This document shows positions 7,000-64,000 of a stretch of 64,000 bases of DNA, in pieces (position 1 is the stretch's first letter; every line of letters begins with the position of its first letter). This DNA is from Candidatus Poseidoniaceae archaeon (lineage in GTDB: Archaea; Thermoplasmatota; Poseidoniia; Poseidoniales; Poseidoniaceae). The position numbers and the translations under genes are program-made. The notes beneath the pieces were generated by a model. That model did no database searches, was not told the DNA's origin, and worked only from the letters and a program-made list of their open reading frames with translations. The stretch covers positions 200,989 to 264,988 of the forward strand of contig CALSRB010000002.1 in the NCBI GenBank assembly GCA_943788655.1. Reading direction: 5' to 3'.

Positions 7000-7977
7000 T
7001 TATGGACGATTTGTCCAGGGCATCAAGAATGCCTTGGCAACTTGAGCGCCCACAGTTGGGTTTTCTTTCAAACGGCGTATGCTGTACTCATACCACTTTT
7101 CGCCGTACGGTATGTACACCCGGGTGCGGTGACCCGCAGCGGCTAATTTTCTACGAAGGGGTCCACGAACACCAAGGAGCATTTGAAATTCATAGCCGGG
7201 CCCTTTGAAATCCCGGGCATCCCCTGAATTTGTTCGAGGGTCTTCGATCCCGGGACCCATTCCGAACGATTCCAATGCAGATGTTGCGTGGTTGATAACT
7301 GGAAGGTCATGGCTTGCTATCGAGCAGTACGCACCAGCCGCAAGCATTCGATCGATGGAGGCATTTGTTGCGTCAACAATATCCTGGTAACCTGTGTAGG
7401 CTATTTCTTCTGGTTCGAGATAGATTCCCTTGCAGATTCTGTAGTCAGCTGCTGGGCCGAGTTCAGTTTCAAGGTAATTGATGTCGTCAAGCGTTCTGAA
7501 GAGGCGACCCTGAAGGACGGTACCAACATTGGTGAGCCCTTGTTTGTGGAGGTCGATGACGGCCTGAATCGTATCTGTTGTGACGCGATGGTCTTCCATG
7601 TCGAGGCGAACAAACATATTCTGCTCATTAGCCATCCGAACAAGTTTCTCGATGTTTGCCATGCCTTTTTCTTTGTCGATAAGCAAGCCAAACGCTGTCG
7701 GCTTGATCGATAAATTCGCATCTAAATTTGAAGAGCGAATGGCTTGGAGAACTCGAACGTATTCATCGAGGAAAAATTGCGCTTCGTCCATGTTAGAGAT
7801 TTCTTCCCCCAAAACATCGACCGTGAAGCATGCTCCTTCACTGCTCAGACGTTTCATGATTCGGAGCGCATCATCAAGCGTTGAACCAGCCACATAACGC
7901 CGTGAAACCCAACCGACGAACCATTTTGGCATACGAACGGTAGCGGCCACGACCGTTCGAGAAAAGAGACCGACCAT
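7000..7977 (-). CDS. Proline dehydrogenase (PRODH domain, PutA-like monofunctional)
   Basis: PRODH family motifs are visible: ICKGIYLE, the ...DMEDH... acidic stretch, and the C-terminal RVYIPYGEKWYEYSIRRLKENP, which matches the YGxxWxxYxxRRxxENP signature. Confidence 0.75.
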   Translation of the reverse strand: MVGLFSRTVVAATVRMPKWFVGWVSRRYVAGSTLDDALRIMKRLSSEGACFTVDVLGEEISNMDEAQFFLDEYVRVLQAIRSSNLDANLSIKPTAFGLLIDKEKGMANIEKLVRMANEQNMFVRLDMEDHRVTTDTIQAVIDLHKQGLTNVGTVLQGRLFRTLDDINYLETELGPAADYRICKGIYLEPEEIAYTGYQDIVDATNASIDRMLAAGAYCSIASHDLPVINHATSALESFGMGPGIEDPRTNSGDARDFKGPGYEFQMLLGVRGPLRRKLAAAGHRTRVYIPYGEKWYEYSIRRLKENPTVGAQVAKAFLMPWTNRP

Positions 7978-17379: not shown

Positions 17380-18116
17380 GCAATACAGGTGCAAGCCCTT
17401 ATCATGCATCGGCCGAAGCCGGCAACATGGACCTTGATGGATTGGATGGCGGCACGAGTCCGTTCATCACACTCGATGCTTGTGATGGTACGCTCGTCAC
17501 ACGCCTGGTTTCTGCGCTTGAAGAAGCAGCAGCCGGAAACAATACACATTGGTCCACAATGATGGATGAGAATCCATCTGTTGCCGAGCGCCTCAAAGGC
17601 CAAGGTATTGAAAATCCGAATGACCGATCAAGCATTGCATGGGACGACCCCACGCTCCTGTTCACGGCAGCAATCGTGCTTACAAGTGAAGGTCGAGCAC
17701 TCCCGTTAGGCGATGGTAAGGCACGGGAGCGAATTGGCAGGTTCCCATTTGGTGACGGCTCACCCATCAGTTACATGATTGAATACATGCGACCAAACCA
17801 TCAACGAGCCGCCTTAACGCAGCGAATTGGCATGGAGGAAATTTTAACTCTCCTCAACAAGTTGAACCATGGCCTAAGCGACCAACACATTGGCCATCAC
17901 AGGTACAATGAAGGAAAAGCGGGAATGGACATCCGAGGCTATCTTTCCGCTGAAGAAGTTCGAACCTTGCGACTCGGCCTCGCTGGACGTGGTTGGAGTG
18001 TTACCGCTGATGAGCCACTTGACGGTGGCATGCGAGATGCAAGCAAGAACCTCATCGCAGTCCTACGAGCGGCAGAACGTCGCGATGTTGGCGTGTTTTT
18101 GCGTACCCATTCCTAA
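17376..18116 (+). CDS. Hypothetical cytoplasmic protein of about 230 to 246 aa, translationally coupled to the giant surface-protein gene
   Basis: The start overlaps the stop of the upstream giant gene (GTGA at 17376..17379). An alternative ATG lies at 17427. No recognisable domain and no TM helix. Confidence 0.45.
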   Translation: MSNTGASPYHASAEAGNMDLDGLDGGTSPFITLDACDGTLVTRLVSALEEAAAGNNTHWSTMMDENPSVAERLKGQGIENPNDRSSIAWDDPTLLFTAAIVLTSEGRALPLGDGKARERIGRFPFGDGSPISYMIEYMRPNHQRAALTQRIGMEEILTLLNKLNHGLSDQHIGHHRYNEGKAGMDIRGYLSAEEVRTLRLGLAGRGWSVTADEPLDGGMRDASKNLIAVLRAAERRDVGVFLRTHS

Positions 18117-28015: not shown

Positions 28016-31000
28016 TCATTGACCATTGCGTTGGAGCCACTGGTGACCGTAGTGTTGCCATTGTTCCATCGTCCAGCCGTCAGGTAAACCCGACGGTGGG
28101 AGCGGTGGTCCCGTTGCAGCAGTTACCGGAGCAGGTGTAGGAACGGGGGCAGGAAGTGGCGTGGGCACTGGAGCCGGTATTTGCGGAAGGGCCTTTGGAG
28201 GAAGACCAGCCGGAGGCAAACCGGCAGGGGGGAGACCTCGAGGCAATGCGCCAGGGGTTGGCAGACCACGTGGCACAGCACCGGGAGGAAGTCCTTGAGG
28301 CACGACGGCAGGTGCAGGTGGGAGGTTGAGGGATTGAGCCAGAGCCGCTGCAATTTCATCCTGCGATACTTCTGCACTTGCGATTTCATTCACAGCGTGG
28401 CCAATGTCAAGTGCTTCATCGCGCCGTGTTCCAAGGTGATCTGGATTGACGAATGCATCAGGGGCCACAAGTTCACTTCCATCATCCTCAAGTTCGCCAG
28501 TGCGCTTCATTCTCAACGCAAGCACCGCTCCTGCGGCAATGAGCACTCCGATTAACGGAATTGAGACATAGAGAGGTAATACGGCGAGCAAACCACCATT
28601 GGTGTCGACGGAGGAAACAGTCGTTTCAATCGAGAATGTCCCCACGGTTTGTTCCTGTGAGGTCACAGAAATTTGTGTGAGCATGAGGCCTTTTGATGCT
28701 GATGCCTTCGGGGTGACGGTCACTTCAACGGTGAGGCTTTCACCAACGCCGAGACTCCCAATGGTGGTTTCTGAAAAAGAGACGCTCCAATCAGTGGAGG
28801 CGTTTCCGTCAGCGTCCAGCACAAGGGCGCTAAGTGCGCCAGTGATCGGTAAGTTGCCATCATTCCGTATAACAATGGATTGGGTTGCGCCCTCTTCCTT
28901 GGCAATGCTTCTGAACGGGCGAATGCTATCATCAGCAACCGACATGTTGGCGAATTGAGACGGCAAGACAGCGACGTCAATACGCACTGATGAGTTGACG
29001 AGGCGCCCGTTGTTTCCCCCGGTCACTGTGATTAAGAGGTCAAAGACTTGTGAGTCTGCAGCGGCATTTGCCGGTGGAATCAAGCCAAATCGAACGGTTT
29101 TTTCTTCCCGTGGTTCAAGGTAAGTGATCGGGTTAGCAAAGCCGACGACCCATCCATCAGGAGCGAGGCCATTGCTCCAAGCAAGCGTCAAAGGAGCATT
29201 GCCGGTGTTCGTCACGTTGAAATTTCCGTAGCTGAATGTGGAACCAATCACGGTTTCGATAACATCCCCTTCTGGACCTTGGAGGTTCACGGCGAGTTCA
29301 TCCCTTACTTTGAGCACTGTTGTGTTTGAGATGAATACCTGTGCGCTCAATTCTGTACGTATGACGAAACTGTTGGTATCGCCTTCTTCCGCTGCACCAG
29401 GCACGCCAATCACGAAGTTCACATCGATGGATTGCCCGGGGCCAAGAGCAATGGAAACTTGACGGGCATCCGTCTGGACTCCAGTGGTGACTTCAATCGG
29501 CCATGTTGGGTTGGAGGGCTGGATTTTGACATTCATGTCGAGGTCTGTGTTTCCGGTGTTCTCAACGGTCAGGTTCATGCTGATTTGTTCCCCACTGTCG
29601 ACAAGAACTTCTCGGTTTTTGGAAGATGGTCCGATTGGCCCGATGTCGTCGTACAAATCAGCACCAAAGGACTGCTGAGGGAGAACTGTGATGGTCGCAG
29701 ATTCACTGAAGTTCATCGAAACATCCGTGCTAGATGTCACATAGCATGTCACAGTATCTGTTGAACCTGTAAGCGGAACGCCGTTCGCCACCGGTGGCAC
29801 AAAAAGATCAATTTTAATCGCCCTGTATTCGCGAATGCCAATGGGTTCAATTTCTAATGTCGATGAGTTTGTGTCCTTGAGCATGATCTGCCAGCGGTTC
29901 TCAGATTCGCAGCTGATTGAGTATTGTGCGGGCGAGTTACCAATGTTCGCAACAGAAATTCTGAAGCCGGCAGAGTCACCGGGTTCAGCCTCGAGCCCTT
30001 CTGTTCCAAGCGGCGTAATGAGGACCTCGTCCAATTGGTCGATTGTAAATGTGAGTCGCTGAGTGTGAGCAACGGTAGGATTGTCTTGGTACCGTGCGGT
30101 CACATCCACCACAAATGTTCCAGAACGGGCATACCTTGGCGAAGCAGGATCGCTCAGGTCCGCATCCTCGTCCTCAAGGTGGATTGTAAGCAACTGGAAA
30201 TCACCAGCTTCTCCTTCCCCTTGAACTGTATATGGCCCCATTTGAGAGACACTCTTTGACCATGTATCCTCTGGCGAAAGGAGGAAATCAGGTCGACCTG
30301 GTTGTGGCACCTGCACCCCGGTGACACTCAGTGTGACATTTTTCTCTCCGGTACCCTCGTGGAGAATGTGAATGGGGATATCAATACCAGTTTGGTTTCG
30401 AACATCGAACGTTCGTATGGCCGCCGCTTCACGATCTTCAGAAGTGACCGGTACCGTACCATCGTCGTTGAGTACGACAACACGAACACCGAGAGCTGTG
30501 ACTTCAATGTCCTGTTCCCAAATGTTATTGTCGATACCAGTGGTCCCATCGTTCATTTCAGCAACCTGATCATTGGTATCGATTCGCAAGCGCATGCTGT
30601 GCGTCCCCGTGGTCAGGAATTGATGTTGAATCAAAAGTGAATCGATGGTTCCTGCAGCCAATGCAGAGCGGTCACCTTCAAACAGCGTTTCTCCAGCAGT
30701 GAGGTCTTCAAAGATGACACGGAAAGAGCCGGTGGCGAGGGTACCTTGGTTGATCCATCCAATTCGGATGGCAATCAAATCATTGCGAAGGGGTTCGGGG
30801 GAGGAAGGGATGATGCTCCCGTCGTACAGAGCAAGGTCGGCTTGGGGCGTCGGGGTTGCATCGGCAGTGACCACAAGTCCGAAACTTTGGGTCGTTCCGC
30901 CACGATGGAGAACCTTAACGAGCCATTGACCCGAGGTTGAAAGGGTACCAGGGGCGACCTTTATGCGCTCCACATTGTTGACTGAATCGCTTGTTTGCCC

Positions 31001-33001
31001 TGATGTGGTAAAGCCGTTTGCGAAATTATTGCCATACCATTCGTTTCCAGATGGGTCAACGAGAACAAGGTCGAGGTTGTTAACAAGACGAGATTCACTC
31101 TGGGCGGCATTTGCAGAACCTGCTACATCCGACCAAGCCAGTGTGATATCAATCCCGTGCGATGCGTCTAACTCGAACGCATAGAGGAGACCAAAGCCCG
31201 CATCCAGGGGAGTATTATCGTCCATGAACGTTGCAAGGGCAGAAGTGCTTGGCGAGGACGCATCCCAAACAGGTAAGACGGTGCGATCGAGGTCGATTTG
31301 ACCCCAGCCCTCAGCGTCGTTGGGAATATCAGGTGCGCCAAGATCTCGAGCACCGTTAATCATGGCCGCTTTCACGAGCGAGCCTGATGGTGCTGAGATC
31401 CCGACCTGTTCTCGAATGAACTCTCGGGTCAATGCTGCGACGCCACCGGCGACAGCGGTTGCTTGGGAAGTACCCGAAAGCAGAGTGTAGACATCTTCCC
31501 CATTGCTGTGAGTTTCAGTGGAGCATGCGGTTCCCGGCGAGGTTTTTGCTTCCTCAGCGGCCCCTGAGCACACATCGACCCCGGGCGCCACAAGGTCGGG
31601 CTTGATTCGTCCATCGAGGCTAGGTCCATTGCTTGAGAATGAGGCCACGCTTCCTGAGGTCGAACCCGTTCCTGAAGCACCAATGGCAAGCACGTTCTTG
31701 GCCGTGGATGGAGGCGTGATTTGTGATGCACCTTGTGAACCACGGTCACCAACAGCGAACAAGGGGAGCATGGAAGGCTTGTCGTGAACGAAGATGTCCA
31801 CTGAACGAGAATCGGCAGAGTACTGACCATAGTTCCCATTCGCCCCCCAAGCGTTGATAGCGATCCTGGCAGTCTTCTGTTCCGCATCCCTCAACAAATC
31901 ATAGATTGAACCGATTCGTCCGAAGACACCTGTCGGGTCATGCTCAAGAGCGTACATCACAAGGTCAGCATTTGGTGCCATGCCCGTAGCGTTCCCGTTT
32001 GATTGCCCATCCCCAATGGCAGACACTGCAATGTGAGTGCCGTGTCCGGTGTTGGAATCGGCAGGAGATGAATCGAGGCCAAATTGAGTGTAGACGCCTG
32101 CAACTCGTCCTATCAAGTCAGGGTGATCCAAATCAAGTCCAGTGTCGGCAATGGCAATCATTTCGCCCGACCCATCGAGGGTGAAGGTTGCATTTGCCCG
32201 CACATCGATGATGCCGGATGCTGCGGCGGCGGCGGCGTTATGCAATGAAAAGTCAGTGGTTGGTTCAATCCATATGATCCGTCCATCGTTTGCAACAGCA
32301 GCGATGAATGAGGGGGCCATTGACGGAGGAAGTTCGACTTCACACACACCAACGCCACACCACGCATTGTGGGCCCCCATTCGAATCAAATCCAAACTCA
32401 ACGCTTCAAACCCACCGTAGGAAAGATCCGCTGCTGGAATCAATGCCAGTCGTTGGGAGGCGTCACCTTCAAGCAGGGAAGCATCGATTCGCCAGCCTGG
32501 GTGTTGGGCGCCAACCCAGCGAACATCGTCATCGACAAGAAGAGCTCGAATTGAATCCACTGGAGGATCCGCCAGTCGGACCAGCCAGGCCTCATCACTG
32601 ATGAAATCGAGTGGAGTAAAGTCATGACGTTCGATGAGTTCCTGCAAAATCATGCCATCATGAGCGTGGAGTTGAACTATCGCAAGCCCGGTCGTTGTGA
32701 AATCGTTTGCGTTGAACAAACCAATTCCTGGTGTTGGATGTTCATGCAAGGTCGGGTCGAAACTTCCGATGTTCATGTTGAGAACGCCAGTCGATGGCTG
32801 AAGAGGAACTTGAATCCGCTCGGTTGGTGTTGCAACGTGCCACATCGAGGCGGCGAGTGCCAAGCGTTCGGCTTCGGACATCACGGTGTTTGTTGGTTCA
32901 TTGATTGATTCAACAGATTCCGAACTCACTGCAAGCATCGGTGAAAGCGATGTCAGGACAAGCAAAACAAGCATCAGTAACGGTCGGCGTAGTGCTTGCA
33001 T
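28016..33001 (-). CDS. Giant membrane-anchored subtilisin-like serine protease (S8) of about 1660 aa. It has a signal peptide, a propeptide, the catalytic domain, multiple Ig/CARDB-like domains, one TM helix, and a 165-aa Pro-rich cytoplasmic tail ending in a W-rich motif.
   Basis: The Asp, His and Ser catalytic triad motifs are IADTGLDLDHPDL, HGTHIAVSAIG and LSGTSQATAVAGGVAAL. The signal is MQALRRPLLMLVLLVLTSL; the track start at 33076 is 25 codons upstream. The TM is LLAVLPLYVSIPLIGVLIAAGAVLAL. The tail contains PRGLP and PAGLPP repeats and ends ...PPLPPSGLPDGWTMEQWQHYGHQWLQRNGQ. Confidence 0.8.
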   Translation of the reverse strand: MQALRRPLLMLVLLVLTSLSPMLAVSSESVESINEPTNTVMSEAERLALAASMWHVATPTERIQVPLQPSTGVLNMNIGSFDPTLHEHPTPGIGLFNANDFTTTGLAIVQLHAHDGMILQELIERHDFTPLDFISDEAWLVRLADPPVDSIRALLVDDDVRWVGAQHPGWRIDASLLEGDASQRLALIPAADLSYGGFEALSLDLIRMGAHNAWCGVGVCEVELPPSMAPSFIAAVANDGRIIWIEPTTDFSLHNAAAAAASGIIDVRANATFTLDGSGEMIAIADTGLDLDHPDLIGRVAGVYTQFGLDSSPADSNTGHGTHIAVSAIGDGQSNGNATGMAPNADLVMYALEHDPTGVFGRIGSIYDLLRDAEQKTARIAINAWGANGNYGQYSADSRSVDIFVHDKPSMLPLFAVGDRGSQGASQITPPSTAKNVLAIGASGTGSTSGSVASFSSNGPSLDGRIKPDLVAPGVDVCSGAAEEAKTSPGTACSTETHSNGEDVYTLLSGTSQATAVAGGVAALTREFIREQVGISAPSGSLVKAAMINGARDLGAPDIPNDAEGWGQIDLDRTVLPVWDASSPSTSALATFMDDNTPLDAGFGLLYAFELDASHGIDITLAWSDVAGSANAAQSESRLVNNLDLVLVDPSGNEWYGNNFANGFTTSGQTSDSVNNVERIKVAPGTLSTSGQWLVKVLHRGGTTQSFGLVVTADATPTPQADLALYDGSIIPSSPEPLRNDLIAIRIGWINQGTLATGSFRVIFEDLTAGETLFEGDRSALAAGTIDSLLIQHQFLTTGTHSMRLRIDTNDQVAEMNDGTTGIDNNIWEQDIEVTALGVRVVVLNDDGTVPVTSEDREAAAIRTFDVRNQTGIDIPIHILHEGTGEKNVTLSVTGVQVPQPGRPDFLLSPEDTWSKSVSQMGPYTVQGEGEAGDFQLLTIHLEDEDADLSDPASPRYARSGTFVVDVTARYQDNPTVAHTQRLTFTIDQLDEVLITPLGTEGLEAEPGDSAGFRISVANIGNSPAQYSISCESENRWQIMLKDTNSSTLEIEPIGIREYRAIKIDLFVPPVANGVPLTGSTDTVTCYVTSSTDVSMNFSESATITVLPQQSFGADLYDDIGPIGPSSKNREVLVDSGEQISMNLTVENTGNTDLDMNVKIQPSNPTWPIEVTTGVQTDARQVSIALGPGQSIDVNFVIGVPGAAEEGDTNSFVIRTELSAQVFISNTTVLKVRDELAVNLQGPEGDVIETVIGSTFSYGNFNVTNTGNAPLTLAWSNGLAPDGWVVGFANPITYLEPREEKTVRFGLIPPANAAADSQVFDLLITVTGGNNGRLVNSSVRIDVAVLPSQFANMSVADDSIRPFRSIAKEEGATQSIVIRNDGNLPITGALSALVLDADGNASTDWSVSFSETTIGSLGVGESLTVEVTVTPKASASKGLMLTQISVTSQEQTVGTFSIETTVSSVDTNGGLLAVLPLYVSIPLIGVLIAAGAVLALRMKRTGELEDDGSELVAPDAFVNPDHLGTRRDEALDIGHAVNEIASAEVSQDEIAAALAQSLNLPPAPAVVPQGLPPGAVPRGLPTPGALPRGLPPAGLPPAGLPPKALPQIPAPVPTPLPAPVPTPAPVTAATGPPLPPSGLPDGWTMEQWQHYGHQWLQRNGQ

Positions 33002-33076
33002 GCCTTTCCCACTTGTCGGGCCTTTTTGAAAACGCCCCTTGCTTGTGCCCCTACGGGGCACGATCGATTCACTCAA

Positions 33077-55720: not shown

Positions 55721-56236
55721 ATGGACCAACCACTCGTCAAGCTTAACGGTGTCAACGAAGGCATAGCAGTCCATATTCAAACGGTGCTCGAGGGCGCCGA
55801 TGAGCCAAACAAAGTGGCAGATGCTGTCCATGCCTTATTCCCTGAGTTCCCACTTCCTACCGAAGTGTTGGAGCCTCAATTCGGTGCTGCGAGCAACCAT
55901 GTATGGGAAGCGGAGCATGTGTCCCTCGGCCATTTCCTTTCCATGCTTCACACACAACGAATCCTCGATACATCCTTGGATGCAATGGGCCGTCATCTCA
56001 ACGGAGACACAACGGTTTTCCAAATAGCTCGGCAAGCAGCACTCTCGTCGAAAGTTGCGTTTCCCCTTCCGGGTGAAGCACCACTTGGTGGGGTGATCCA
56101 AGTAACACTCGCATCGCCCAATTTGATGGATTGGCTGCACGCAGCGACATGGCATAAAGGTCGAGACAGTGTACCTCGAACGCTCGATGATGAACGGTCA
56201 ATGGCAGAAGACGGTGAAGCGAGCACCTGGGTTTAA
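55721..56236 (+). CDS. Hypothetical protein of about 171 aa (MDQPLVKLNGVNEGIAVHIQT...); weak resemblance to archaeal UPF0201-type small proteins
   Basis: ORF only. The start was chosen at an internal ATG. The alternative track start at 55598 would overlap the GT2 gene. Confidence 0.3.
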   Translation: MDQPLVKLNGVNEGIAVHIQTVLEGADEPNKVADAVHALFPEFPLPTEVLEPQFGAASNHVWEAEHVSLGHFLSMLHTQRILDTSLDAMGRHLNGDTTVFQIARQAALSSKVAFPLPGEAPLGGVIQVTLASPNLMDWLHAATWHKGRDSVPRTLDDERSMAEDGEASTWV

Positions 56237-57252
56237 TCAATTAAATCCAGTTCCTTCAAGCGTTCAACAACTTGGCGATCTGAACCTGTAAAATCGAGCG
56301 CTTTGCTGCTTTCGTAGGTGTGCCATTCTACAGAATCATGGGAGGTCCAACGCGGACTGAGGATGAACGACGGTACCACGCCAACGAATTCACACATCAA
56401 GACATCCAATTCGATGGTGACTTCCGGCAATTCATGGTGCCATGTGCCAATCGATGATTGGGCACTGACAAGCCAACCAAACTCTTCTTCGATTTCCCGA
56501 ACAATCGCTTGTTGAAACGTCTCGTTACATTCGAGTTTACCGCCCGGGAACTCCCATGTACCCGCATGACGTTCGTGCGAAGCCCGACGAGCCACCAGAA
56601 ACTTGCGTTCATCAAGGAGCAGCGAGCCAACCACCCTCAGCACTGGTTTGTGGAGCATCCGTGCAATGACTTGGATGACAAGTTCAAGCGATGCTCCAAG
56701 CGGATACACGGATGCTGGTGGCAGGTGAAGAAAGAGGATTGGGATTGATTCGTCCGTGTTTGCCTCTAAGCTTCTGTACAATGTTTCGTTGCACAAATAT
56801 GCCCCAGCGTCCGTCGAGGTTTCCGCGTCGGTCTGCCAAGATTGGAACCAGTGCTTCACAGGAACTGTTGATGGACGATCGCCTTGACCAGAAAGTGGGG
56901 CCGATGCTACCTGTCGACCCGCATTATCTGGAATCCTCATTGCGAGTCGGTCTGCTGCTAATGTCTCAAGCCGAGGAACGGTGCAGGTACCGCAAACGCC
57001 GAGGTGAAGAACAGCATCCCAAGACGCACCTGAGGCAATGCGATTGGCCACCGTCATGCTTCCTGCCTTGTCAACAGAAAGGACCAACCGTTCAAGTTCC
57101 ACATTCATCGGCTTGGACAAAGCCCTCAACGCCGACCATGGATCTTCGACGACCAGTGTATCGGTCAACGCGTTGACAATATCCATCGAGATATTGACCT
57201 CCGAGCCACCAAACGGTTCGAATCCTGTCAGAAGTACACGGACCACGGCCAA
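56233..57252 (-). CDS. Fusion protein: an N-terminal pyroglutamyl-peptidase I (Pcp, C15) and a C-terminal MutT-type NUDIX hydrolase
   Basis: The Pcp N-terminus is VLLTGFEPFGG. The catalytic Cys sits in AGAYLCNETLY and the His in FLHLP. The NUDIX box GTWEFPGGKLECNETFQQAIVREIEEEFGW matches GX5EX7REUXEEXGU and resembles E. coli MutT (GKWEFPGGKIE...VRELQEEVG). The ORF is a single frame of 339 aa with no internal stop. Confidence 0.7.
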   Translation of the reverse strand: MAVVRVLLTGFEPFGGSEVNISMDIVNALTDTLVVEDPWSALRALSKPMNVELERLVLSVDKAGSMTVANRIASGASWDAVLHLGVCGTCTVPRLETLAADRLAMRIPDNAGRQVASAPLSGQGDRPSTVPVKHWFQSWQTDAETSTDAGAYLCNETLYRSLEANTDESIPILFLHLPPASVYPLGASLELVIQVIARMLHKPVLRVVGSLLLDERKFLVARRASHERHAGTWEFPGGKLECNETFQQAIVREIEEEFGWLVSAQSSIGTWHHELPEVTIELDVLMCEFVGVVPSFILSPRWTSHDSVEWHTYESSKALDFTGSDRQVVERLKELDLID

Positions 57253-57350: not shown

Positions 57351-57683
57351 ATGGAAGAAATGGTTGTTCAATTCCCCGCAGAAGACAAAAGGGACATCAC
57401 CGATCGGCGGGAAGTTCGATTCGTTCGTGAAGTCTGGCGACAAATCACGTTTGGTGTTGGCGCGTGGGGGACACTCCGTCCGATAATCACTGCGCTGCTT
57501 GCTTCGATTCCGTTCCTCTTCCTTGGGCAACATTTCAACCGTAAACACCGACGGGGCTTTGATTGGTTCCTACTACAAATTCCATTGGCCCTAACACTCG
57601 TGCTTTGGGTTGGCCTCTACCTGTACTCGATTTACGATGCGTGGAGGGACGCAACAATGGTCGGCGCAACGATCGATGCTTAG
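57351..57683 (+). CDS. Small membrane protein with 2 TM helices. Function unknown.
   Basis: ORF with two hydrophobic helices (ITFGVGAWGTLRPIITALLASIPFLFL and LQIPLALTLVLWVGLYLY). Confidence 0.35.
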   Translation: MEEMVVQFPAEDKRDITDRREVRFVREVWRQITFGVGAWGTLRPIITALLASIPFLFLGQHFNRKHRRGFDWFLLQIPLALTLVLWVGLYLYSIYDAWRDATMVGATIDA

Positions 57684-58471
57684 GGACGCCACAATTGATT
57701 CTCTGATGAAATTGAGCCGTCTGCCAACCCATTCAAATCATCGAGATCGTCTTGGTCGAATTCGGTCGGCAAGTCGCCTGAAAAGAACGAACCAACGGAT
57801 CGAGAGTTGATGGCCCAATACATCACAGAGTCTTCATTGTTGGAATGACCCTTGTTCTCGCTGTCTTCATGGTCTGCTGGCGAGGTGTAAACGAGGTTCA
57901 CCAAGCCCAGCAAATGACCGACTTCATGAACAATCACGCTGTTTTCGACTTCTTCGGCAGATGGTCGATTGAACCAGCCTGCAGCATCATCGACGGACTC
58001 TCCGAAGATAGCAATGGTGGAAGCGTCAACTGCAACACCGAGAACACTGTCATCTTCGTAAGTCCCAGAAGGGAAAATGATCTGCCACGTGAGGACTGAG
58101 CCTTCTCTCGGTTCGTCTGCCTTTGCATCCCAGCCCTTGTCACGAACATCATCTGCGCTCCATGAGCCTTCATGATTGAATGTTGTAGCGGTGAATTTTA
58201 TGTCCACTCCGTTGGGCTTATCGCACACTGATTCAAGCCGCTCGGCAAGCATGTCGGTACTGGATTCTTCCGGCTTGAAGCCTTCCTCGTAGTCGATTTC
58301 AATGACCAGGCGGGTGTAGGAACTGTCATCTAAGCACGCCAAGGTAAGTCCGCCGGGTACCCCGTGGTTTTCGAACAAATCGTTGGTGAGGTTTGACGTT
58401 CCAACACAGCCAGACAGCGGAGCGAGGAACACAAGGAGCATGAGGATGATTCCAATAGGCCCTTTCGTCAT
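57680..58471 (-). CDS. Secreted lipoprotein zinc metallopeptidase (zincin, HExxH)
   Basis: The signal is GIILMLLVFLAPLSGC, ending in a lipobox-like LSGC. The zinc-binding motif is HEVGHLLGL, with a downstream H/D-rich segment. The ectodomain is acidic. Confidence 0.55.
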   Translation of the reverse strand: MTKGPIGIILMLLVFLAPLSGCVGTSNLTNDLFENHGVPGGLTLACLDDSSYTRLVIEIDYEEGFKPEESSTDMLAERLESVCDKPNGVDIKFTATTFNHEGSWSADDVRDKGWDAKADEPREGSVLTWQIIFPSGTYEDDSVLGVAVDASTIAIFGESVDDAAGWFNRPSAEEVENSVIVHEVGHLLGLVNLVYTSPADHEDSENKGHSNNEDSVMYWAINSRSVGSFFSGDLPTEFDQDDLDDLNGLADGSISSENQLWRP

Positions 58472-58508: not shown

Positions 58509-58961
58509 TTACCAGTCTTCTGGAATCTCAAGTGGCGAGAACAACTGCCCTGGCCCTTGCGCCCGAGACAATTGAGCACGTGACAATGCTTCCCAAGGCC
58601 GCAATGCAAGCAATCCTTCGGCAAGTGTGGCCTCAATTTCCACAAGGGTTACACGTATTAGCGTCGAAAGGATGTCCATTCGATCTTCATCAATGATTTT
58701 GAACACCTTTTCGAGGTCGAACGTCGCGCTGACATCACCTTGGCTGCCTTCTTCGATTGGCCAAGGAGCTGTGATTCGCTCACTGAAAGACTGCCCACTT
58801 GCTTCGATGTGAGCATCAAGCGAACGGGAAAGACCTGCGATGTGACGGCCAACAACGAGACTGACTTCTATCAAAGGCATGTTGAGTTGGTTAATCAGGT
58901 TGACCACGCGCTCTTGCATCGTCACCATGCCTTCGACGGCAGCGTCGGGTGTGTCGCTCAT
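58509..58961 (-). CDS. Hypothetical cytoplasmic protein of 150 aa, tightly coupled (9 nt) downstream of the giant surface-protein gene
   Basis: ATG verified at 58961. A 9-nt gap separates it from the TGA of the upstream giant ORF. No TM helix and no motif recognised. Confidence 0.45.
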   Translation of the reverse strand: MSDTPDAAVEGMVTMQERVVNLINQLNMPLIEVSLVVGRHIAGLSRSLDAHIEASGQSFSERITAPWPIEEGSQGDVSATFDLEKVFKIIDEDRMDILSTLIRVTLVEIEATLAEGLLALRPWEALSRAQLSRAQGPGQLFSPLEIPEDW

Positions 58962-58970
58962 TGCTAAGCC

Positions 58971-61900
58971 TCACTTCTTCATTGATTCGACGTACTGCCA
59001 ACCAAAGTGATTCCACTGGTCTTGAGTCCAACCTTCAGGAAGGCCTGTTGGTGGGAGTGGAGGTGGGGGTCGTTGCCCTGGAGCAAGAGGCTGTGCTGGC
59101 GCTGGAGCGACGGGAGCAAGTGGAGCAGCAGGTTGAGCCTGTGTTGGTGGTGCATGTGTCGCATCTGCGAATTCTGGAAGGACCTTTGCAGTGTTCATAT
59201 CTTCCACTACAGATTGGGTTTCATCGGTGAGGCCACCCTCAAGACCTTCTGTACGGATTCTGCGGTTGAGAACCAACATCCACATGGCCAAGGAAAGTGA
59301 TACCAAAGCGACAATGTAGAGCACAATAGCGAAGGTACTTTCCGAGGCTTGTTGTGCGAGTGCGTCACCATCACGAACCGTTTCTCCCTTGACAATCAGG
59401 GGGTCAACAGTACGACGGTCCATTTCGACTTCATCAACCAAAACCAACAAACGATATTCGACGCTTTCACCCTCGCCGACATCTGCGACGGTGGCCATCT
59501 GTGCTTCTGTCAAACCACCTGCAGTGGCGACGAGATCGACGCGTACGACTTCTGCCCAGAACCCGCCCTCTACGGCCCGCTGGAGCACGTAGGCGACGTC
59601 ACCCTTGCCACCTTGATTCAAAACCTGAACTTCCAGATAGACAGCTTCTCCTTCAACTGGCGAAGGATTGTTCCATGAGAGGACCGTGTCGTCATGACTC
59701 AAATCGAGTGATGGGCCAAGCAGTGCCAGAGGCCACGATGCGATTGGTGTCGAAAGTGAGTTGTCGAGCGTATCGAAAGGATTGCCTGCAGCGTCTGAGC
59801 CTGAGACCCAGACATCAACCACGTAGGATGGAAGCAGAACTGTTGCCCCGGCGTCTGTTAGGTCGAGGTGGCCGGTCCAGAAGAATTGCTCACCAAATGG
59901 TGTTGTGTCGGGAAGTGGGAGGCTGCCTCGAGAGATTTCTGCCTCTCCTGCACGAACTCTGTAATGGAGAACCGCCGGTTCATCAAGATCGAATCCATAA
60001 TCATCCAGGGTCTCAAGCATCACGAGCAAGTCGCCAGCGTCACCAATTGAGAGAGGGGAATCGGAGGAGACTTCGTTGAGTGCAATGGCTGAGATGGTTG
60101 GGCGTGAACTGTCGACTGCAAGTCGAACGCGAGGAATAATGGATGTTTCATCCATGGCAATTCCCGGCAAGTCATCCAGACCCAATCGAAGGTCTAAGTG
60201 CCCAGACCGAACCGATGGAATCAACAAATCAAGGCTAAATTCACCAGCATCTCGTGTCGATGTTCGCCATGTGTAGTCATAATCACCAAACACGACGTCA
60301 AACGCACCAGCAGGAGCAGGCGTGTCATCTTCGGAAAACAGAACGCGACCGTTCACCCTCAAGGCTTGTCCTGCACCGATGAGCGTCTCGCTGAATTCAT
60401 TGTTGTAATGGTTGGTTCCATCCCTCAATTCTACGGCACGAATGTGTCCATCCATTGTATCGAATCGGAAGTCATTGTCCAAACTCCATGCGTCATTCCC
60501 AAGGCCAGCCTTTGCTTCGAAACATGGCGTTTCTTCGCCCACATTGCACGGCAAATCGGTTACCAAAATCTTCGGAATGATTCTTGACTCCCCATTGGTG
60601 TCAAACACTTCAGGGAAGGTCCAAGTCAATTGGAACCTCGCAAGGATTTTGATGATGCTGTTGTTCGCCTCATCAATCGATACAGAGGAGTAGAGGTTCG
60701 AAACAGCGATGCTGCCAGATCCGGCCTCCATGACGGCGGTTGGCATTCCGTTTTGGTCAGCCATGAGTGAGATAAAGATCGAAGTATCATCGTCATCGTA
60801 ATCGCCACCAAGCGCTAACTGAACATATTGGATATCTTGCCATCCATTCCGGTCTGAAAGAACAATTTGAGCTGAGTACGGAATACCAGGGTGCAGCGGT
60901 GATTTGTCATCGTGACCAAGAATGGTGGAATTATCCAAATCCAATTGCGGTTCAAATTCAACACGGATTTTGTAAGTGCCCAGGTCGTTGTCCCAATCTG
61001 GAACGGTTTCACCAGGAGCATAGCCACATGGAATGGTCGAGTCTGGGCACACTGGGCCCTTCCCCATCGCCACAGCATTGTCTTGTGCATCCTTTCCGGT
61101 CACATAGTAGGAGACTTGTTGGCCGTGGCCAAGCATTGAATCGTCAATCAATCCCTGGAAAATATTCAGGCCGCCGGGTTGTATTTCTGGAGAAGAGAGT
61201 GTTTTTATCTCATATTCGTCTTCATTCGGCAGGCCATCAAAGTTGTAATCGCTGCAGCCAATAGCGGAACTTGCTTTGCATCCAATCCAGTAGTGCAATG
61301 AAATTTGATTCGGTGGATCGACTGAATCCTGGATGGCAACACTGAGAGATTGTCCGCCAGGAGCGGGTGGGCCCGCGTGGCGCTCTTCACCGTCACCGGG
61401 GGTTGAGGACAGAACGAGCGGTGAATTCCCATCAAGAATCAAACGCAGGGTATTGTAACCCGGATTGGTATAGGTGGAACCGTTTGGAAGGTCGCTTGGA
61501 ATCACATAGAATATCATTCCACCAGGTGAAGACTCAAGCGGTGCAGTGAAGGTCATGTTGTACTCACCAAACGCCGGATTCTGCTCGACTGCCAGCACGA
61601 CAGGTTCGCCGATTGGGTCTCCGTCATAGGTGACGTTTTGTCCGATAATGGTCATGTTGAATTGACCAGCAAGCGGTGAAAGTTGGGAATCTTGGAAATG
61701 AATCCCACCAGTGAATGTGAGGTTGAAACCGCCACGTACCCAATCCTGATTGTAGAGTTCCCTCCCAGTCTCTTCATAGACACGAAGGCCATCGAGTTGG
61801 ATATCATTTTCCACAACCAAATCAAGCGAACTTGTCTCCCATGCAGAGACAGAAAGACCGAGATCATCCTCTACCGAGATGAGCGCCTCGGTTCCAGATT

Positions 61901-64000
61901 CGTCGTCCCAAGCCCAATCGATTCTGAGCGGCATGCGAATGGAAACAACGCCCAACGCATCGGTCGTTGAGGTGCAATTGGCCGCATCGAACATAACAAT
62001 GCCTTCACCATCGCTGACAACAGTGCAAACATCACCACGTTCCCAGCTAAACGCTGGATTTTCACCGTATGAATTGCCGAGAGCAACAAGTGCATCGGTC
62101 ACATAGTCAACATCGTCTCCTGGTGCAACGCGGGTCACAAGGTTCCTGTAGGCACCATCGGGAGCGATAAGGCCACCTTCGAGTGATGCGTCGACAGCGC
62201 GGGTTTGCATCTTGTACGCAACATCGATGTTTGAGATCTTAACTCGGCCGGAACTTGCAGCCTTGATGGCAATCGGGACAAGGATGTCACCGTCACCGTT
62301 TTCTGGGACAGCGTCATTAAACGCATCAATGAGCATAGGTGCGAACTTCACATCGACACCCACGACAGACTCGTCACTCGCCTCGACAGCAGATTCGTTC
62401 AGGAAAAGAAGTGATTCCCATTCCCAAACTTGGTCGTTCCCGATGTCGATCCGTGGTCGGTCCGGGTAGCCTTCCTCGTATTCGAGGAGCATGCTGTCCA
62501 TCGTCGGAGTCAGGCTGGGGTCAGAGGTCGACATGCTGACGGCGTACCGAACCGTTGAACCTGCTTCATCCGCCGTGAAACTTACTTCTTGTCCGTTCGT
62601 GGCTGGCAACCATGTGCTCCCGTTATCATTGGAAACTTGAACCTGCAGTGTGGTACCTGCTGGAGTTGTCGAAATCCATTGGGGTCGAACCTTGCCAACC
62701 TTTGTCCCGGCTGTGAACGGATCAGAGGTCCATGAGCCACTTGAAACATAGGATGTTGACATCTCAACATCGACCCACCAAGAGACTGCCGTCGAACCGA
62801 TCAACTGCGCCTTCCAAACGAGTTCTGTCCCGGGGTATGCAAAGTGAATCGTCTCATTCGAGGTGACCGATTCCCAATGCGTTCCGTTATCAGCAGAAAT
62901 CCAGTAATCAACACGGTCACCGGTCGATGCTGCCGACCAGTAGGTCTGCATGTTTGCAGCGACAATGTCATCGCCGGATGTCGTAACGGGCCCATACCAT
63001 GTCGTGGTACCCGGCGCAGGTGTGGTTTTGTATTGCCAACCAGTACCGTATTCACGGTAGTAAAGAGTGGAAGAGGACCATGTTGAGTAGCCACAGTCAA
63101 TTGTCACGAATCTGTTCCCGTCGAATTGGAGGCCATAGCCGAGAGCGGAGAGGAGACGAGTACCGATTTGTGGAACAAGCGAGGATGAAGATCCTGAAAT
63201 CGACCACGCTTCAAGCTGGTCCTTATCTTGGCTCGTGGAACCTTTTTGGCAGCGCATGAAGAAGGTGGTTGAATTAACTTCCAAACCACGAACTTGCTGA
63301 CCTGTTTTCCCACACTCGAATGATGTTCCAGAAGAAGATGAATAGGAGTACATATTCGTACCACGTTGGTATTGCCCGTCACCTGCACTGGAGAATGTGT
63401 AGGGAACAATACGACGTTGACTGTTGTGAACAATCCAGATGTCTTCGGTGTCCCGGTCATATGCAATGCCGGTGTAATCAGAGTATTGTGGTGAAACATC
63501 GTAGGTGTCGATGCACGTCCAAGTGTCATCTCGGGAGATATCCATTTCAACAACACGATGGTATTGGGATGGTGCAGTTGCGCTGTAATGATAACGGTAC
63601 CCTGAGAGGATGCCGAACATACGCTCATCATCGGTGATGGTCCAGTCTCGGAATCCATATGAGCCATAATAGCTGCTCGGGTGGAGGAAATCGATGCTGC
63701 AATCGGCTTCATCAAGGGTAATGGTTGATTCACGAGACAAATTATTTGGATAAAGGCGGTCGACGATGTTATGGAAGGTCGAGCCGCTCCACTTGGACAT
63801 AAACACCCAATCGTGATGCTTGAGAACGGCACCTTGAGATTGCTTGGTTAGGCTACTGCTTGTTTTGAGAACCTGTTGAGAAAATCTGTTTTCCGTTGCG
63901 TTGGAAGTGTGAGGTTGGCGCAAGGCATACGAGCCATTGTCCAGCCAAGCATCGGAGTTCCCATCTGTGAATTCCTCATAACCATGGGGGAAGAAGGAGT
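58971..64000 (-). CDS. Giant cell-surface protein of more than 1670 aa, 5'-truncated at the window edge. It has a large beta-rich ectodomain, one C-terminal TM helix, and a 98-aa Pro-rich cytoplasmic tail that ends in the same W-rich motif as the S8 protease at 28016..33001.
   Basis: The frame is open to position 64000; the track 'start' at 63923 is a TTG in-frame with upstream sense codons. The TM is FAIVLYIVALVSLSLAMWMLVL. The tail NRRIRTEGLEGG...PPPPLPPTGLPEGWTQDQWNHFGWQYVESMKK aligns with the protease tail. Many N-x-S/T sequons. Confidence 0.7.
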   Translation of the reverse strand, partial: SFFPHGYEEFTDGNSDAWLDNGSYALRQPHTSNATENRFSQQVLKTSSSLTKQSQGAVLKHHDWVFMSKWSGSTFHNIVDRLYPNNLSRESTITLDEADCSIDFLHPSSYYGSYGFRDWTITDDERMFGILSGYRYHYSATAPSQYHRVVEMDISRDDTWTCIDTYDVSPQYSDYTGIAYDRDTEDIWIVHNSQRRIVPYTFSSAGDGQYQRGTNMYSYSSSSGTSFECGKTGQQVRGLEVNSTTFFMRCQKGSTSQDKDQLEAWSISGSSSSLVPQIGTRLLSALGYGLQFDGNRFVTIDCGYSTWSSSTLYYREYGTGWQYKTTPAPGTTTWYGPVTTSGDDIVAANMQTYWSAASTGDRVDYWISADNGTHWESVTSNETIHFAYPGTELVWKAQLIGSTAVSWWVDVEMSTSYVSSGSWTSDPFTAGTKVGKVRPQWISTTPAGTTLQVQVSNDNGSTWLPATNGQEVSFTADEAGSTVRYAVSMSTSDPSLTPTMDSMLLEYEEGYPDRPRIDIGNDQVWEWESLLFLNESAVEASDESVVGVDVKFAPMLIDAFNDAVPENGDGDILVPIAIKAASSGRVKISNIDVAYKMQTRAVDASLEGGLIAPDGAYRNLVTRVAPGDDVDYVTDALVALGNSYGENPAFSWERGDVCTVVSDGEGIVMFDAANCTSTTDALGVVSIRMPLRIDWAWDDESGTEALISVEDDLGLSVSAWETSSLDLVVENDIQLDGLRVYEETGRELYNQDWVRGGFNLTFTGGIHFQDSQLSPLAGQFNMTIIGQNVTYDGDPIGEPVVLAVEQNPAFGEYNMTFTAPLESSPGGMIFYVIPSDLPNGSTYTNPGYNTLRLILDGNSPLVLSSTPGDGEERHAGPPAPGGQSLSVAIQDSVDPPNQISLHYWIGCKASSAIGCSDYNFDGLPNEDEYEIKTLSSPEIQPGGLNIFQGLIDDSMLGHGQQVSYYVTGKDAQDNAVAMGKGPVCPDSTIPCGYAPGETVPDWDNDLGTYKIRVEFEPQLDLDNSTILGHDDKSPLHPGIPYSAQIVLSDRNGWQDIQYVQLALGGDYDDDDTSIFISLMADQNGMPTAVMEAGSGSIAVSNLYSSVSIDEANNSIIKILARFQLTWTFPEVFDTNGESRIIPKILVTDLPCNVGEETPCFEAKAGLGNDAWSLDNDFRFDTMDGHIRAVELRDGTNHYNNEFSETLIGAGQALRVNGRVLFSEDDTPAPAGAFDVVFGDYDYTWRTSTRDAGEFSLDLLIPSVRSGHLDLRLGLDDLPGIAMDETSIIPRVRLAVDSSRPTISAIALNEVSSDSPLSIGDAGDLLVMLETLDDYGFDLDEPAVLHYRVRAGEAEISRGSLPLPDTTPFGEQFFWTGHLDLTDAGATVLLPSYVVDVWVSGSDAAGNPFDTLDNSLSTPIASWPLALLGPSLDLSHDDTVLSWNNPSPVEGEAVYLEVQVLNQGGKGDVAYVLQRAVEGGFWAEVVRVDLVATAGGLTEAQMATVADVGEGESVEYRLLVLVDEVEMDRRTVDPLIVKGETVRDGDALAQQASESTFAIVLYIVALVSLSLAMWMLVLNRRIRTEGLEGGLTDETQSVVEDMNTAKVLPEFADATHAPPTQAQPAAPLAPVAPAPAQPLAPGQRPPPPLPPTGLPEGWTQDQWNHFGWQYVESMKK

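What the first reader, a model, noticed from the sequence alone, without database searches (positions are those of the whole stretch)
58974..59267. Partner locus of the shared W-rich tail motif: second giant protein with a downstream coupled small ORF
This is the second copy of the TM, Pro-rich linker and PPLPPxGLPxGWTxxQWxHxGxQ[WY] tail (see 28019..28513). Here it is followed, after only 9 nt, by a 150-aa cytoplasmic ORF (58509..58961) with no known domain. That ORF is a candidate binding partner or chaperone for the tail. The protease copy is followed instead by adk after 41 nt, so the small ORF is not obligatory.
Basis: partly seen in the sequence, partly recalled or inferred. Interest (0 to 1): 0.6.

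Follow-up and report, generated by a model that had tools for sequence, protein, structure and literature searches.

The report
Archaeal surface-protein tail and neighbour gene
The segment is the cytoplasmic end of a giant cell-surface protein of a Marine Group II archaeon; its tryptophan-rich ending is an undescribed anchor module shared by many unrelated surface proteins of that order, while the small gene behind it is a real, conserved neighbour of this one giant only, with no evidence that it binds the tail.

Summary
58974..59267 (-) encodes the 98 residues after the membrane helix of a giant surface protein, "giant B". They end PPPLPPTGLPEGWTQDQWNHFGWQYVESMKK, the same ending as the S8 protease at 28016..33076. 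A 150-aa ORF follows after 9 nt. The window is from a Poseidoniaceae (MGIIa) archaeon, 87% identical to CM001443.1.

The tail is a real, unannotated family. It has 635 clusters among 1.84 billion representatives and no Pfam or NCBIfam model. It sits at the C-terminus after a TM helix and a Pro/Ala/Glu linker of about 70 aa, on at least 9 unrelated ectodomain families.

The small ORF is a real, single-copy, acidic, all-helical cytoplasmic protein (AF2 pLDDT 88) with no fold or family match. It follows a giant-B orthologue in 80 of 80 genomes. That whole 18-kb block is collinear, so this adjacency is weak evidence. Among 82 other tail-bearing genes, only one has it, and that one is another giant-B orthologue. 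The others are followed by adk, thermosome, LonB or another ORF.

An AF2 fusion of the ORF with the tail gave no confident docking. A "tail chaperone" role is therefore not supported as a general rule. A role specific to giant B remains possible.

The parts
58971..64000 (-). Gene for 'giant B', a type-I membrane-anchored surface protein. It is incomplete: the reading frame runs off the window end. The orthologue has about 1810 aa and a signal-peptide-like N-terminus.
   Evidence: frame open to 63998. (L007 4547..9991, 1814 codons, N-terminus ...GRGVMFLLFIIMVLSPMSPLADV). No Pfam, NCBIfam or PDB sequence match.
59268..59333 (-). Predicted transmembrane helix FAIVLYIVALVSLSLAMWMLVL. It is followed by NRRIR, which fits the positive-inside rule and puts the C-terminus in the cytoplasm.
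   Evidence: The same architecture occurs in 171 of 180 tail-bearing ORFs. The topology is inferred.
59067..59267 (-). Cytoplasmic linker of 67 aa, acidic at first and then Pro/Ala-rich.
   Evidence: Across the family the linker has a median of 70 aa, with P 19%, A 13% and E 10%. AF2 pLDDT is below 45.
58974..59066 (-). W-rich C-terminal tail motif PPPLPPTGLPEGWTQDQWNHFGWQYVESMKK. This is the giant-B subtype, with Trp at motif position 15.
   Evidence: The W-rich half is predicted helical (H232-247 of the fusion model, pLDDT 65-68). Its helical hydrophobic moment is 0.28.
58962..58970 (-). 9-nt spacer. Together with the stop codon it forms an SD-like GTGAGG sequence upstream of the small-ORF ATG.
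   Evidence: The spacer length varies in orthologous loci (7-55 nt, not always a multiple of 3).
58509..58961 (-). Small ORF of 150 aa. It is a conserved, single-copy, acidic (pI 4.4), all-helical cytoplasmic protein family of Poseidoniaceae. The C-terminus GPGQLFSP..P.(E).W is invariant.
57680..58471 (-). Predicted lipoprotein of 263 aa with an HEVGHLLG zincin-like motif. It is the last gene of the conserved four-gene block and starts 37 nt after the small ORF, behind an SD-like GAGGGG.
   Evidence: Peptidase_M10, E 6.5e-4, 20 bits, below the cut-off of 24; present in 80 of 80 loci, with the match starting 471-549 nt after the start of the small-ORF match..
28016..33076 (-). S8 subtilase of 1686 aa carrying the other tail copy in the window (tail motif 28019..28111). 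It is flanked by GAPDH (0 nt upstream) and adk (41 nt downstream).
   Evidence: adk follows 13 tail-bearing ORFs in the metagenome loci, including every full-length ORF of 1607-1686 codons; two of these full-length ORFs were confirmed as S8 by Pfam.

Best explanation
**What the segment is.** It encodes the cytoplasmic C-terminal end of a Sec-exported, single-pass surface protein of about 1810 aa (giant B). The organism is a Poseidoniaceae (Marine Group II-a) archaeon.

**The tail module.** It consists of a TM helix, a disordered Pro/Ala/Glu linker of about 70 aa, and the invariant ending PPLPPxGLPxGW(T/S)xxQWxx(Y/F)GxQ(Y/W)(L/I/V). It is an exchangeable, order-wide anchor module found on at least nine unrelated ectodomain families: S8 proteases, PKD/CARDB proteins, TSP3-repeat proteins and domains of unknown kind.

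**Most likely mechanism of the tail (inferred).** A polyproline stretch and a short aromatic amphipathic helix are held on a flexible tether below the membrane. They act as a common docking signal for a shared partner, either a cytoplasmic protein or the inner membrane face. That partner positions or retains the anchored exoproteome. It is not encoded next to most tail genes.

**The small ORF.** It is a real cytoplasmic helical-bundle protein that belongs to one conserved four-gene block: secreted giant A, anchored giant B, the small ORF, and a zincin-like lipoprotein. SD-like sites, gaps of 9 and 37 nt, and the absence of a terminator-like site suggest co-transcription. Most likely (inferred) it is an accessory factor specific to that block. 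It would help make or hold the giant A/B surface complex from the cytoplasmic side. Contact with giant B's own tail subtype is one possible route, but it is not demonstrated. It is not a gene-linked companion of the tail in general.
For: **Tail family.**
- A profile search finds 635 clusters at E<=1e-3 and 336 at E<=1e-10. By my own count of the table, the motif ends within a few residues of the C-terminus in most of the 150 best hits.
- The metagenome scan matched more than 599 stretches, of which 512 were confirmed.
- 171 of 180 tail-bearing ORFs have an upstream hydrophobic segment, and the median linker is 70 aa.
- There are 9 ectodomain clusters. Pfam content is diverse: S8+CARDB, PKD, TSP_3 or none.
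- No Pfam or NCBIfam model matches the tail.
- Every source name is Poseidoniales or Poseidoniaceae. One tail-bearing contig (L095) has an RtcB whose nearest named relatives are Thalassarchaeaceae.

**Small ORF.**
- 865 homologues and strong purifying selection.
- A confident helical model, with no TM segment and no paralogue.

**The block.**
- 80 of 80 loci have a tail-bearing giant B upstream. giantA-giantB-small-zincin is present wherever sequence is available. Insertions occur only beyond the zincin gene (L050, L064) or later (L057).
- Both the small ORF and the zincin gene have SD-like sites, and there is no terminator-like site.

**Not tail-linked in general.**
- Only 1 of 82 other tail genes has the small ORF, and that one is a giant-B orthologue.
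- The other neighbours were verified as adk, thermosome and LonB.
- A distant giant-B homologue with a generic tail (L095; 22% identity over 800 aa, E 3e-14) has RtcB next to it rather than the small ORF.
Against: - No experiment or expression data bear on any of this.
- The whole 18-kb region is collinear across the 80 genomes. Even the link to the block could be inherited gene order without a shared function, as with adk behind the protease.
- Only the best 80 of 149 genome hits were inspected.
- AF2 gave no confident contact between the small ORF and the tail. That run had no alignment for the tail part and returned no PAE, so it is weak evidence either way.
- A docking partner for the tail is pure inference. 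The helix is only moderately amphipathic: 3.5% of shuffles reach its hydrophobic moment.
- A trans-acting small ORF that serves all tails cannot be excluded, because presence and absence per genome could not be tabulated.
Confidence: 0.45

Rival explanations
1. The 150-aa protein binds or chaperones the W-rich tail. It would do so either for giant B only or in trans for all tail-bearing proteins, much as FliS- or FlgN-type helical-bundle chaperones hold the C-terminal amphipathic helices of their clients.
For: - The adjacency to a tail-bearing gene is perfectly conserved, in 80 of 80 loci.
- The protein is a small, acidic helical bundle.
- The tail ends in a predicted amphipathic helix.
- Giant-B tails form a distinct subtype: Trp at motif position 15 occurs only in tails that precede the small ORF.
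Against: - Only 1 of 82 other tail genes has the small ORF next to it.
- The AF2 fusion gives pLDDT about 42 for PPLPPTGLPEGW and 65-68 for the helix, with pTM 0.63. No confident interface is predicted.
- The Trp-15 subtype is equally explained by orthology.
- The client is Sec-exported and its tail stays in the cytoplasm, so no export chaperone is needed.
Confidence: 0.2
2. The small ORF is a functionally unrelated neighbour. It would be a lineage-specific cytoplasmic protein that merely sits behind giant B in a compact, collinear genome, just as adk, thermosome and LonB sit behind other tail-bearing genes.
For: - The entire block, including C15-NUDIX, GT2 and DnaJ, keeps its order and spacing in nearly all 80 loci.
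- Very short gaps are common in this window (coordinates).
- Tail genes are routinely followed at 35-60 nt by housekeeping genes.
Against: - Insertions that break collinearity fall after the zincin gene, never inside giantA-giantB-small-zincin (L050, L057, L064).
- The family is known only from this position.
- SD-like sites and the lack of a terminator-like site fit co-transcription.
Confidence: 0.3
3. On how the tail works: it is a truncated WW-like hairpin placed next to its own PPLP ligand. Tails would bind one another and cluster the surface proteins, rather than dock on a separate partner.
For: - The best PDB sequence matches of the tail profile are the WW domains of SAV1. PPLPptGLPdGWT..YGqqYld aligns to PLEREGLPPGWE..FGTYYVD.
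- A PPLP-type stretch directly precedes the motif.
Against: - Those matches have E 0.07, which is not significant.
- Pfam WW is not hit even at E<=10.
- The protein ends 5-13 residues after the YG...Y(L/I/V) stretch in most cases. The third strand and the second Trp-x-x-Pro are therefore absent.
- AF2 models the stretch as a helix, and the strand-type hydrophobic moment is low.
Confidence: 0.07

Closest known systems
Sortase-type C-terminal sorting signals: PGF-CTERM/archaeosortase A, LPXTG/sortase, PEP-CTERM/exosortase and GlyGly-CTERM/rhombosortase
   Same: A short conserved C-terminal module that includes a TM helix. It is appended to many unrelated secreted or surface proteins within one lineage and sits at the very end of the protein.
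   Different: In those systems the signature lies before or within the TM helix, only a few basic residues follow it, and the module is cleaved. Here the conserved motif lies about 70 residues after the TM helix, on the predicted cytoplasmic side. No NCBIfam sorting-signal model matches, and no processing enzyme is implied.
WW domain (PF00397) with a PPLP-type ligand
   Same: It shares the LPxGW start, a Gly after 8 residues and an aromatic-(L/I/V)-(D/E) stretch. The weak best PDB hits are SAV1 WW domains. A PPLP stretch is adjacent.
   Different: Only 12 columns align by hhalign and there is no Pfam hit. The third strand and the second Trp-x-x-Pro are missing. AF2 predicts a helix.
FliS/FlgN-type helical-bundle export chaperones (analogy for the small ORF)
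   Same: A small, acidic, all-helical cytoplasmic protein encoded directly behind a very large exported protein whose C-terminus ends in an amphipathic helix.
Iverson et al. 2012 MG-II genome (CM001443.1): the orthologous locus
   Same: The same gene block. The window is 86.7% identical in DNA over 8 kb, and the small ORF is 97% identical in protein.
   Different: It is a different strain or species. In the sources I saw, the genes are named only as hypothetical proteins, where named at all.

Membership tests
WW domain (PF00397), tested on the tail | Match to the family profile | tested here: not met
   No Pfam WW hit for three tail constructs at E<=10. PDB WW chains match only at E 0.07.
WW domain (PF00397), tested on the tail | Two Trp about 20-22 residues apart, a C-terminal Pro, and a three-stranded sheet | tested here: not met
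   Most proteins end 5-13 residues after the motif. hhalign covers 12 columns only. AF2 gives a helix.
PGF-CTERM / archaeosortase-type sorting signal, tested on the tail | Signature motif immediately before the TM helix, a short basic tail after it, and a match to the NCBIfam/TIGRFAM model | tested here: not met
   No NCBIfam hit for giant B or for the tail. 98 residues follow the TM helix, and the family median linker is 70 aa.
Poseidoniales W-rich C-terminal tail (family defined here) | TM helix, then a Pro-rich linker, then P-x-x-G-L-P-x-G-W-(T/S)-x-x-Q-W-x-x-(Y/F)-G at or near the C-terminus | tested here: met
   Both window copies carry every position that is invariant across 155 distinct tails.
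FliS (PF02561) / FlgN (PF05130) chaperones, tested on the small ORF | Profile match or a specific fold match | tested here: not met
Small-ORF family (150 aa, Poseidoniaceae) | Full-length homology, including the invariant RMDIL...RVTL.E and GPGQLFSP..P..W | tested here: met
   865 homologues, and 52 sequences aligned with 41 invariant columns.
Peptidase M10 / metzincin, tested on the 263-aa lipoprotein | HExxHxxGxxH zinc site and a profile score above the gathering threshold | tested here: inconclusive
   HEVGHLLGLVN has Asn where the third His is expected. Pfam gives 20.0 bits against a cut-off of 24.
Peptidase S8, tested on the protease that carries the other tail | Profile match over the full catalytic domain | tested here: met
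   PF00082, E 7e-41, profile positions 1-288 of 288.
SepF (PF04472), tested on the ~195-aa ORF behind tandem tail genes in metagenome loci | Profile match | tested here: not met
   No Pfam hit at E<=10. No PDB hit.

The most novel reading that the evidence does not exclude
The W-rich tail is a previously unrecognised, order-wide cytoplasmic address label. Through it the most abundant planktonic archaea would tie their whole anchored exoproteome (proteases and adhesins) to an internal scaffold. The 150-aa protein would be the dedicated adaptor that reads the Trp-15 subtype of the label on giant B. Together they would form a transmembrane link between a giant surface complex (giant A and giant B) and the cytoplasm.
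Probability: 0.1. Interest if true: 0.7.

Novelty: new variant of a known kind. Interest (0 to 1): 0.35.

Why it matters
Marine Group II archaea are uncultured and among the most abundant archaea in surface oceans. Their large surface proteases and adhesion-type proteins are thought to underlie their growth on particles and proteins.

A shared cytoplasmic tail on at least nine unrelated families of these proteins has three uses:
- It gives a simple sequence handle for listing the anchored exoproteome in any MGII genome.
- It points to an unknown common partner inside the cell.
- It is missing from Pfam and NCBIfam.

The small ORF is of narrower interest. It is a well-folded orphan family tied to one conserved pair of giant surface-protein genes.

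The main practical result is negative. Gene adjacency in these compact, collinear genomes should not be read as functional coupling.

Tried and rejected
1. **Read-through fusion of giant B and the small ORF.** In the window the two are in frame across a single TGA. The spacer is 7-55 nt in orthologues and is often not a multiple of three. Rejected.
2. **Co-fold using the natural read-through translation.** Alignments that mixed tail fragments with small-ORF homologues were mis-aligned by MAFFT. The run that worked used an alignment for the small-ORF part only.
3. **Likeness of the small-ORF C-terminus QLFSPLEIPEDW to the tail PLPPTGLPEGW.** MAFFT suggested it. hhalign gives probability 0.6%. 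I treat it as chance.
4. **WW-domain membership of the tail.** Not met.
6. **Defence-system models (PADLOC).** No hits.
7. **Tail on viral contigs.** None found.
8. **Literature.** No paper holds the string GWTMEQW. The two MGII papers I searched with tail-related terms (C-terminal, transmembrane, surface protein) returned no relevant passage. Rinke et al. (PMC6461757) discuss adhesion only through flagella, thrombospondin and flotillin genes.
9. **Giant A and giant B as paralogues.** No BLASTP similarity.
10. **The first protein search with the tail.** It returned only proteins of 102 aa or less, apparently a length limit of the tool. The census rests.
Full report
**Observation.** The region 58974..59267 (minus strand) translates to NRRIRTEGLEGG...PAQPLAPGQRPPPPLPPTGLPEGWTQDQWNHFGWQYVESMKK. 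These are the 98 residues that follow a hydrophobic helix, FAIVLYIVALVSLSLAMWMLVL (59268..59333), in a very long ORF.

A six-frame search finds the core GLPxGW(T/S)xxQWxx(Y/F)G only twice in the 64-kb window. One copy is here. The other is at the end of the 1686-aa ORF 28016..33076, which is an S8 subtilase (PF00082, E 7e-41). The two tails share 15 invariant positions.

The stop codon of the giant is followed after 9 nt by the ATG of a 150-aa ORF, 58509..58961. The protease is followed after 41 nt by adenylate kinase (PF00406, E 1e-51). So the description is correct.

Three corrections apply:
- The TM helix lies just outside the stated coordinates.
- The giant ORF is cut by the window edge. 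Its frame is open to 63998, and the orthologue has 1814 codons from stop to stop with a signal-peptide-like start.
- A 9-nt gap is ordinary in this window. Several same-strand neighbours sit 0-10 nt apart (coordinates). For example, GAPDH abuts the protease gene with 0 nt between them.

**Source organism.** Homologues of the small ORF come only from Poseidoniales MAGs. The genome scan returned 80 loci. Where a family or genus is named it is always Poseidoniaceae or Poseidonia, in 37 titles, and never Thalassarchaeaceae. The best locus is CM001443.1, the MG-II chromosome assembly. The window is 86.7% identical to it over 8 kb.

**The tail is a real, unannotated protein module.**
- A profile of 16 tails, searched against 1.84 billion representative proteins, found 635 clusters at E<=1e-3 and 336 at E<=1e-10. 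By my own count of the table, the match ends at or within a few residues of the C-terminus in most of the 150 best hits.
- In the 166 loci plus the window I found 180 tail-bearing ORF segments. Of these, 171 have a hydrophobic 19-mer upstream. The linker between it and the motif has a median of 70 residues (P 19%, A 13%, E 10%).
- The invariant positions are P(-3), G0, L1, P2, G4, W5, Q9, W10 and G14.
- Ectodomains of carriers with at least 500 residues fall into 9 BLAST clusters. Their Pfam content is diverse: S8+CARDB(+NPCBM_assoc), PKD/CARDB, TSP_3 repeats, or nothing.
- Neither Pfam nor NCBIfam has a model that matches the tail.
- I found no paper that contains the core string. The two MGII papers I searched for tail-related terms returned nothing relevant.
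- Named sources of carriers are Poseidoniales or Poseidoniaceae.
- One carrier contig, L095, has an RtcB whose nearest named relatives are Thalassarchaeaceae. The module is therefore probably order-wide.
- Not every anchored giant has it. The 1906-aa protein at 11659..17379 has a TM helix followed by a different acidic ending...RMRRFFGDQ.

**The small ORF is a real gene.**
- It has 865 homologues at E<=1e-3, and the 120 listed are 132-166 aa long.
- 41 alignment columns are invariant across 52 sequences, including the C-terminal GPGQLFSP..P..W.
- Against the CM001443.1 orthologue, 42 codons differ synonymously and 4 non-synonymously.
- It has no TM-like segment and a pI of 4.4. It is single-copy in the window and in every locus.
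- AlphaFold2 with the family alignment gives a confident all-helical model (pLDDT 88.2, pTM 0.83). The helices are 5-26, 30-55, 83-89, 92-108 and 113-133, and the C-terminal residues pack at pLDDT 93.
- Pfam, NCBIfam, PADLOC and a PDB profile search give nothing.

**Synteny, read from the small ORF.** In all 80 genome loci the small-ORF homologue is preceded on the same strand by an ORF that ends in the tail. That ORF has about 1800-1860 codons in most loci and is shorter where the contig or the frame is cut. The gap is 7-55 nt. The six metagenome places for two homologues show the same order.

The upstream gene is always the same orthologue, and the whole neighbourhood is collinear. The order is giant A (about 1920 aa, no C-terminal TM, ends ...DSSPIRYDSRQTG), giant B, small ORF, a 263-aa lipoprotein with HEVGHLLG, a C15-peptidase/NUDIX fusion, a GT2 glycosyltransferase, a zinc-ribbon protein and DnaJ. 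These genes keep their order and spacing in almost every locus.

The only breaks seen are insertions after the zincin gene (L050, L064) or after the NUDIX gene (L057). That gives mild support for giantA-giantB-small-zincin as a unit. SD-like sequences precede the small ORF and the zincin gene, and no terminator-like site lies between them.

**Synteny, read from the tail.** Among 80 metagenome loci chosen by the tail alone, 82 tail-bearing ORFs have at least 600 nt of downstream sequence. A profile of the small-ORF family finds a homologue behind only one of them, L157. Its tail (…GWKYIEAFSK) marks it as a giant-B orthologue. No weaker hits exist anywhere in the loci at E<=10.

The other classes have their own fixed neighbours:

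| Tail-bearing class | Gene that follows | Gap | Cases |
|---|---|---|---|
| S8 proteases | adk | -4 to 45 nt (41 nt in the window) | 13 |
| ~1116-1221-codon class | thermosome | 9-87 nt, 60 nt in most | 13 (Cpn60_TCP1, E 1e-182 in two checked) |
| ~1140-1180-aa class | LonB | 61-74 nt | 5 (two confirmed by Pfam) |
| Tandem pair of tail genes, 3 nt apart | unrelated ~195-aa ORF starting MxxLWQFFGLPDPE | 9-11 nt in 6 of 8; 14 and 15 nt in the other two | 8 |

A distant giant-B homologue with a generic tail (L095, 2226 aa; 22% identity over 800 aa, E 3e-14) has RtcB on the opposite strand behind it.

So the small ORF tracks giant B, not the tail. Giant-B tails form a subtype with Trp at motif position 15. 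That is expected from orthology and does not by itself imply binding.

**Co-fold test.** I fused the 76-residue cytoplasmic region of giant B to the C-terminus of the small ORF. I supplied the family alignment for the small-ORF part only, because mixed alignments were mis-registered. In the result the small-ORF part keeps its fold (pLDDT 72-94). The linker is below 45, PPLPPTGLPEGW is about 42, and TQDQWNHFGWQYVESM forms a helix at pLDDT 65-68. The pTM is 0.63. That is what an undocked amphipathic helix looks like. No PAE is returned and the tail had no alignment, so this is weak negative evidence.

**What the tail may be.** The helical hydrophobic moment of the W-rich half is 0.28-0.37, against 0.06-0.11 for a strand periodicity. 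3.5% of shuffles reach it.

The best PDB sequence matches of the tail profile are the WW domains of SAV1 at E 0.07. However:
- hhalign to WW sequences aligns only the LPxGW dozen columns.
- Pfam WW is not hit.
- Most tails end too early for a third strand.

I therefore do not file it as a WW domain.

My working model (inferred) is a polyproline stretch plus a short aromatic helix on a flexible tether of about 70 residues. It would serve as a common docking signal on the cytoplasmic side, binding either the membrane face or a shared partner encoded elsewhere.

**Verdict.** The small ORF is conserved and always sits beside this tail-bearing giant. Nothing ties it to the tail as such, the adjacency is embedded in a fully collinear block, and the co-fold is not supportive.

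I consider it most likely an accessory cytoplasmic protein of the giantA-giantB-zincin block (confidence about 0.45). The rivals are an unrelated neighbour (0.3) and a true tail binder (0.2).

The more interesting result is the tail family itself, an undescribed C-terminal module of the MGII surface proteome. Overall interest is modest.

Noticed in passing
L091 30..7289 and 7302..7877. Also L093, L097, L102, L129, L143, L149 and L159.: Two tail-bearing genes lie in tandem (about 1186 and 1220 codons, 3 nt apart). The second has an extra extension of about 39 aa after the motif. They are followed by a conserved ORF of about 195 aa starting MxxLWQFFGLPDPE, at 9-11 nt in six of the eight loci and at 14-15 nt in L143 and L149. 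By eye its C-terminal half recalls SepF. Pfam (E<=10), PDB sequences and hhalign (probability 0.3%) do not confirm this.
   Followed up: partly
window 11659..17379 (+): A third giant protein (1906 aa; FG-GAP, CARDB and NPCBM_assoc domains). It has a C-terminal TM helix and an acidic cytoplasmic end of about 105 aa that finishes ...EGREDRMRRFFGDQ, not the W-rich tail. This may be a second type of cytoplasmic ending. An ORF of 246 aa with no Pfam match overlaps its stop by 4 nt (17376..18116).
   Followed up: partly
window 56233..57252 (-): A single ORF joins a pyroglutamyl-peptidase (C15) domain to a NUDIX domain. It is conserved at the same position in 74 of 80 related loci.
   Followed up: no
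L007 1..4515; L001-L006 1..~2500: Directly upstream of giant B lies a second giant gene, giant A (about 1920 aa, with bacterial-type TSP3 repeats). It has no C-terminal TM helix and no BLASTP similarity to giant B. Its C-terminal part is the best-conserved piece of the block (median best-segment identity 76% across the family). In the window it would lie beyond position 64000.
   Followed up: partly
L022, L032, L034, L039 and L040, about 6.6-10.2 kb downstream of the small ORF: A further tail-bearing gene of about 950 aa with TSP_3 repeats (...PPLPPEGLPAGWTMEQWAWYGEDYLKNR) is present in some Poseidoniaceae genomes where the window lineage has a 742-aa ORF on the other strand. The loci end at this gene, so its downstream neighbour was not seen.
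   Followed up: no
L061 (CAXQWT010000018.1) and L074 (CALDQY010000050.1): Two contigs that carry this archaeal giant-B/small-ORF block are filed in public MAGs named Salipiger bermudensis and Rhodobiaceae bacterium. This is probably a binning error.
   Followed up: no
L094, L099, L107, L108, L110 and others; L114, L123, L139, L164, L165: Tail-bearing genes repeatedly lie directly upstream of protein-quality-control genes on the same strand: thermosome (60 nt away in most loci) and LonB (61-74 nt away). Whether this is more than conserved gene order was not examined.
   Followed up: partly
window 58509..58550 (-), C-terminus of the small ORF: MAFFT twice aligned the invariant C-terminus QLFSPLEIPEDW of the small ORF onto the tail's PLPPTGLPEGW (shared P-x-x-[LI]-P-E-x-W). 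hhalign gives probability 0.6%, so this is probably chance.
   Followed up: yes
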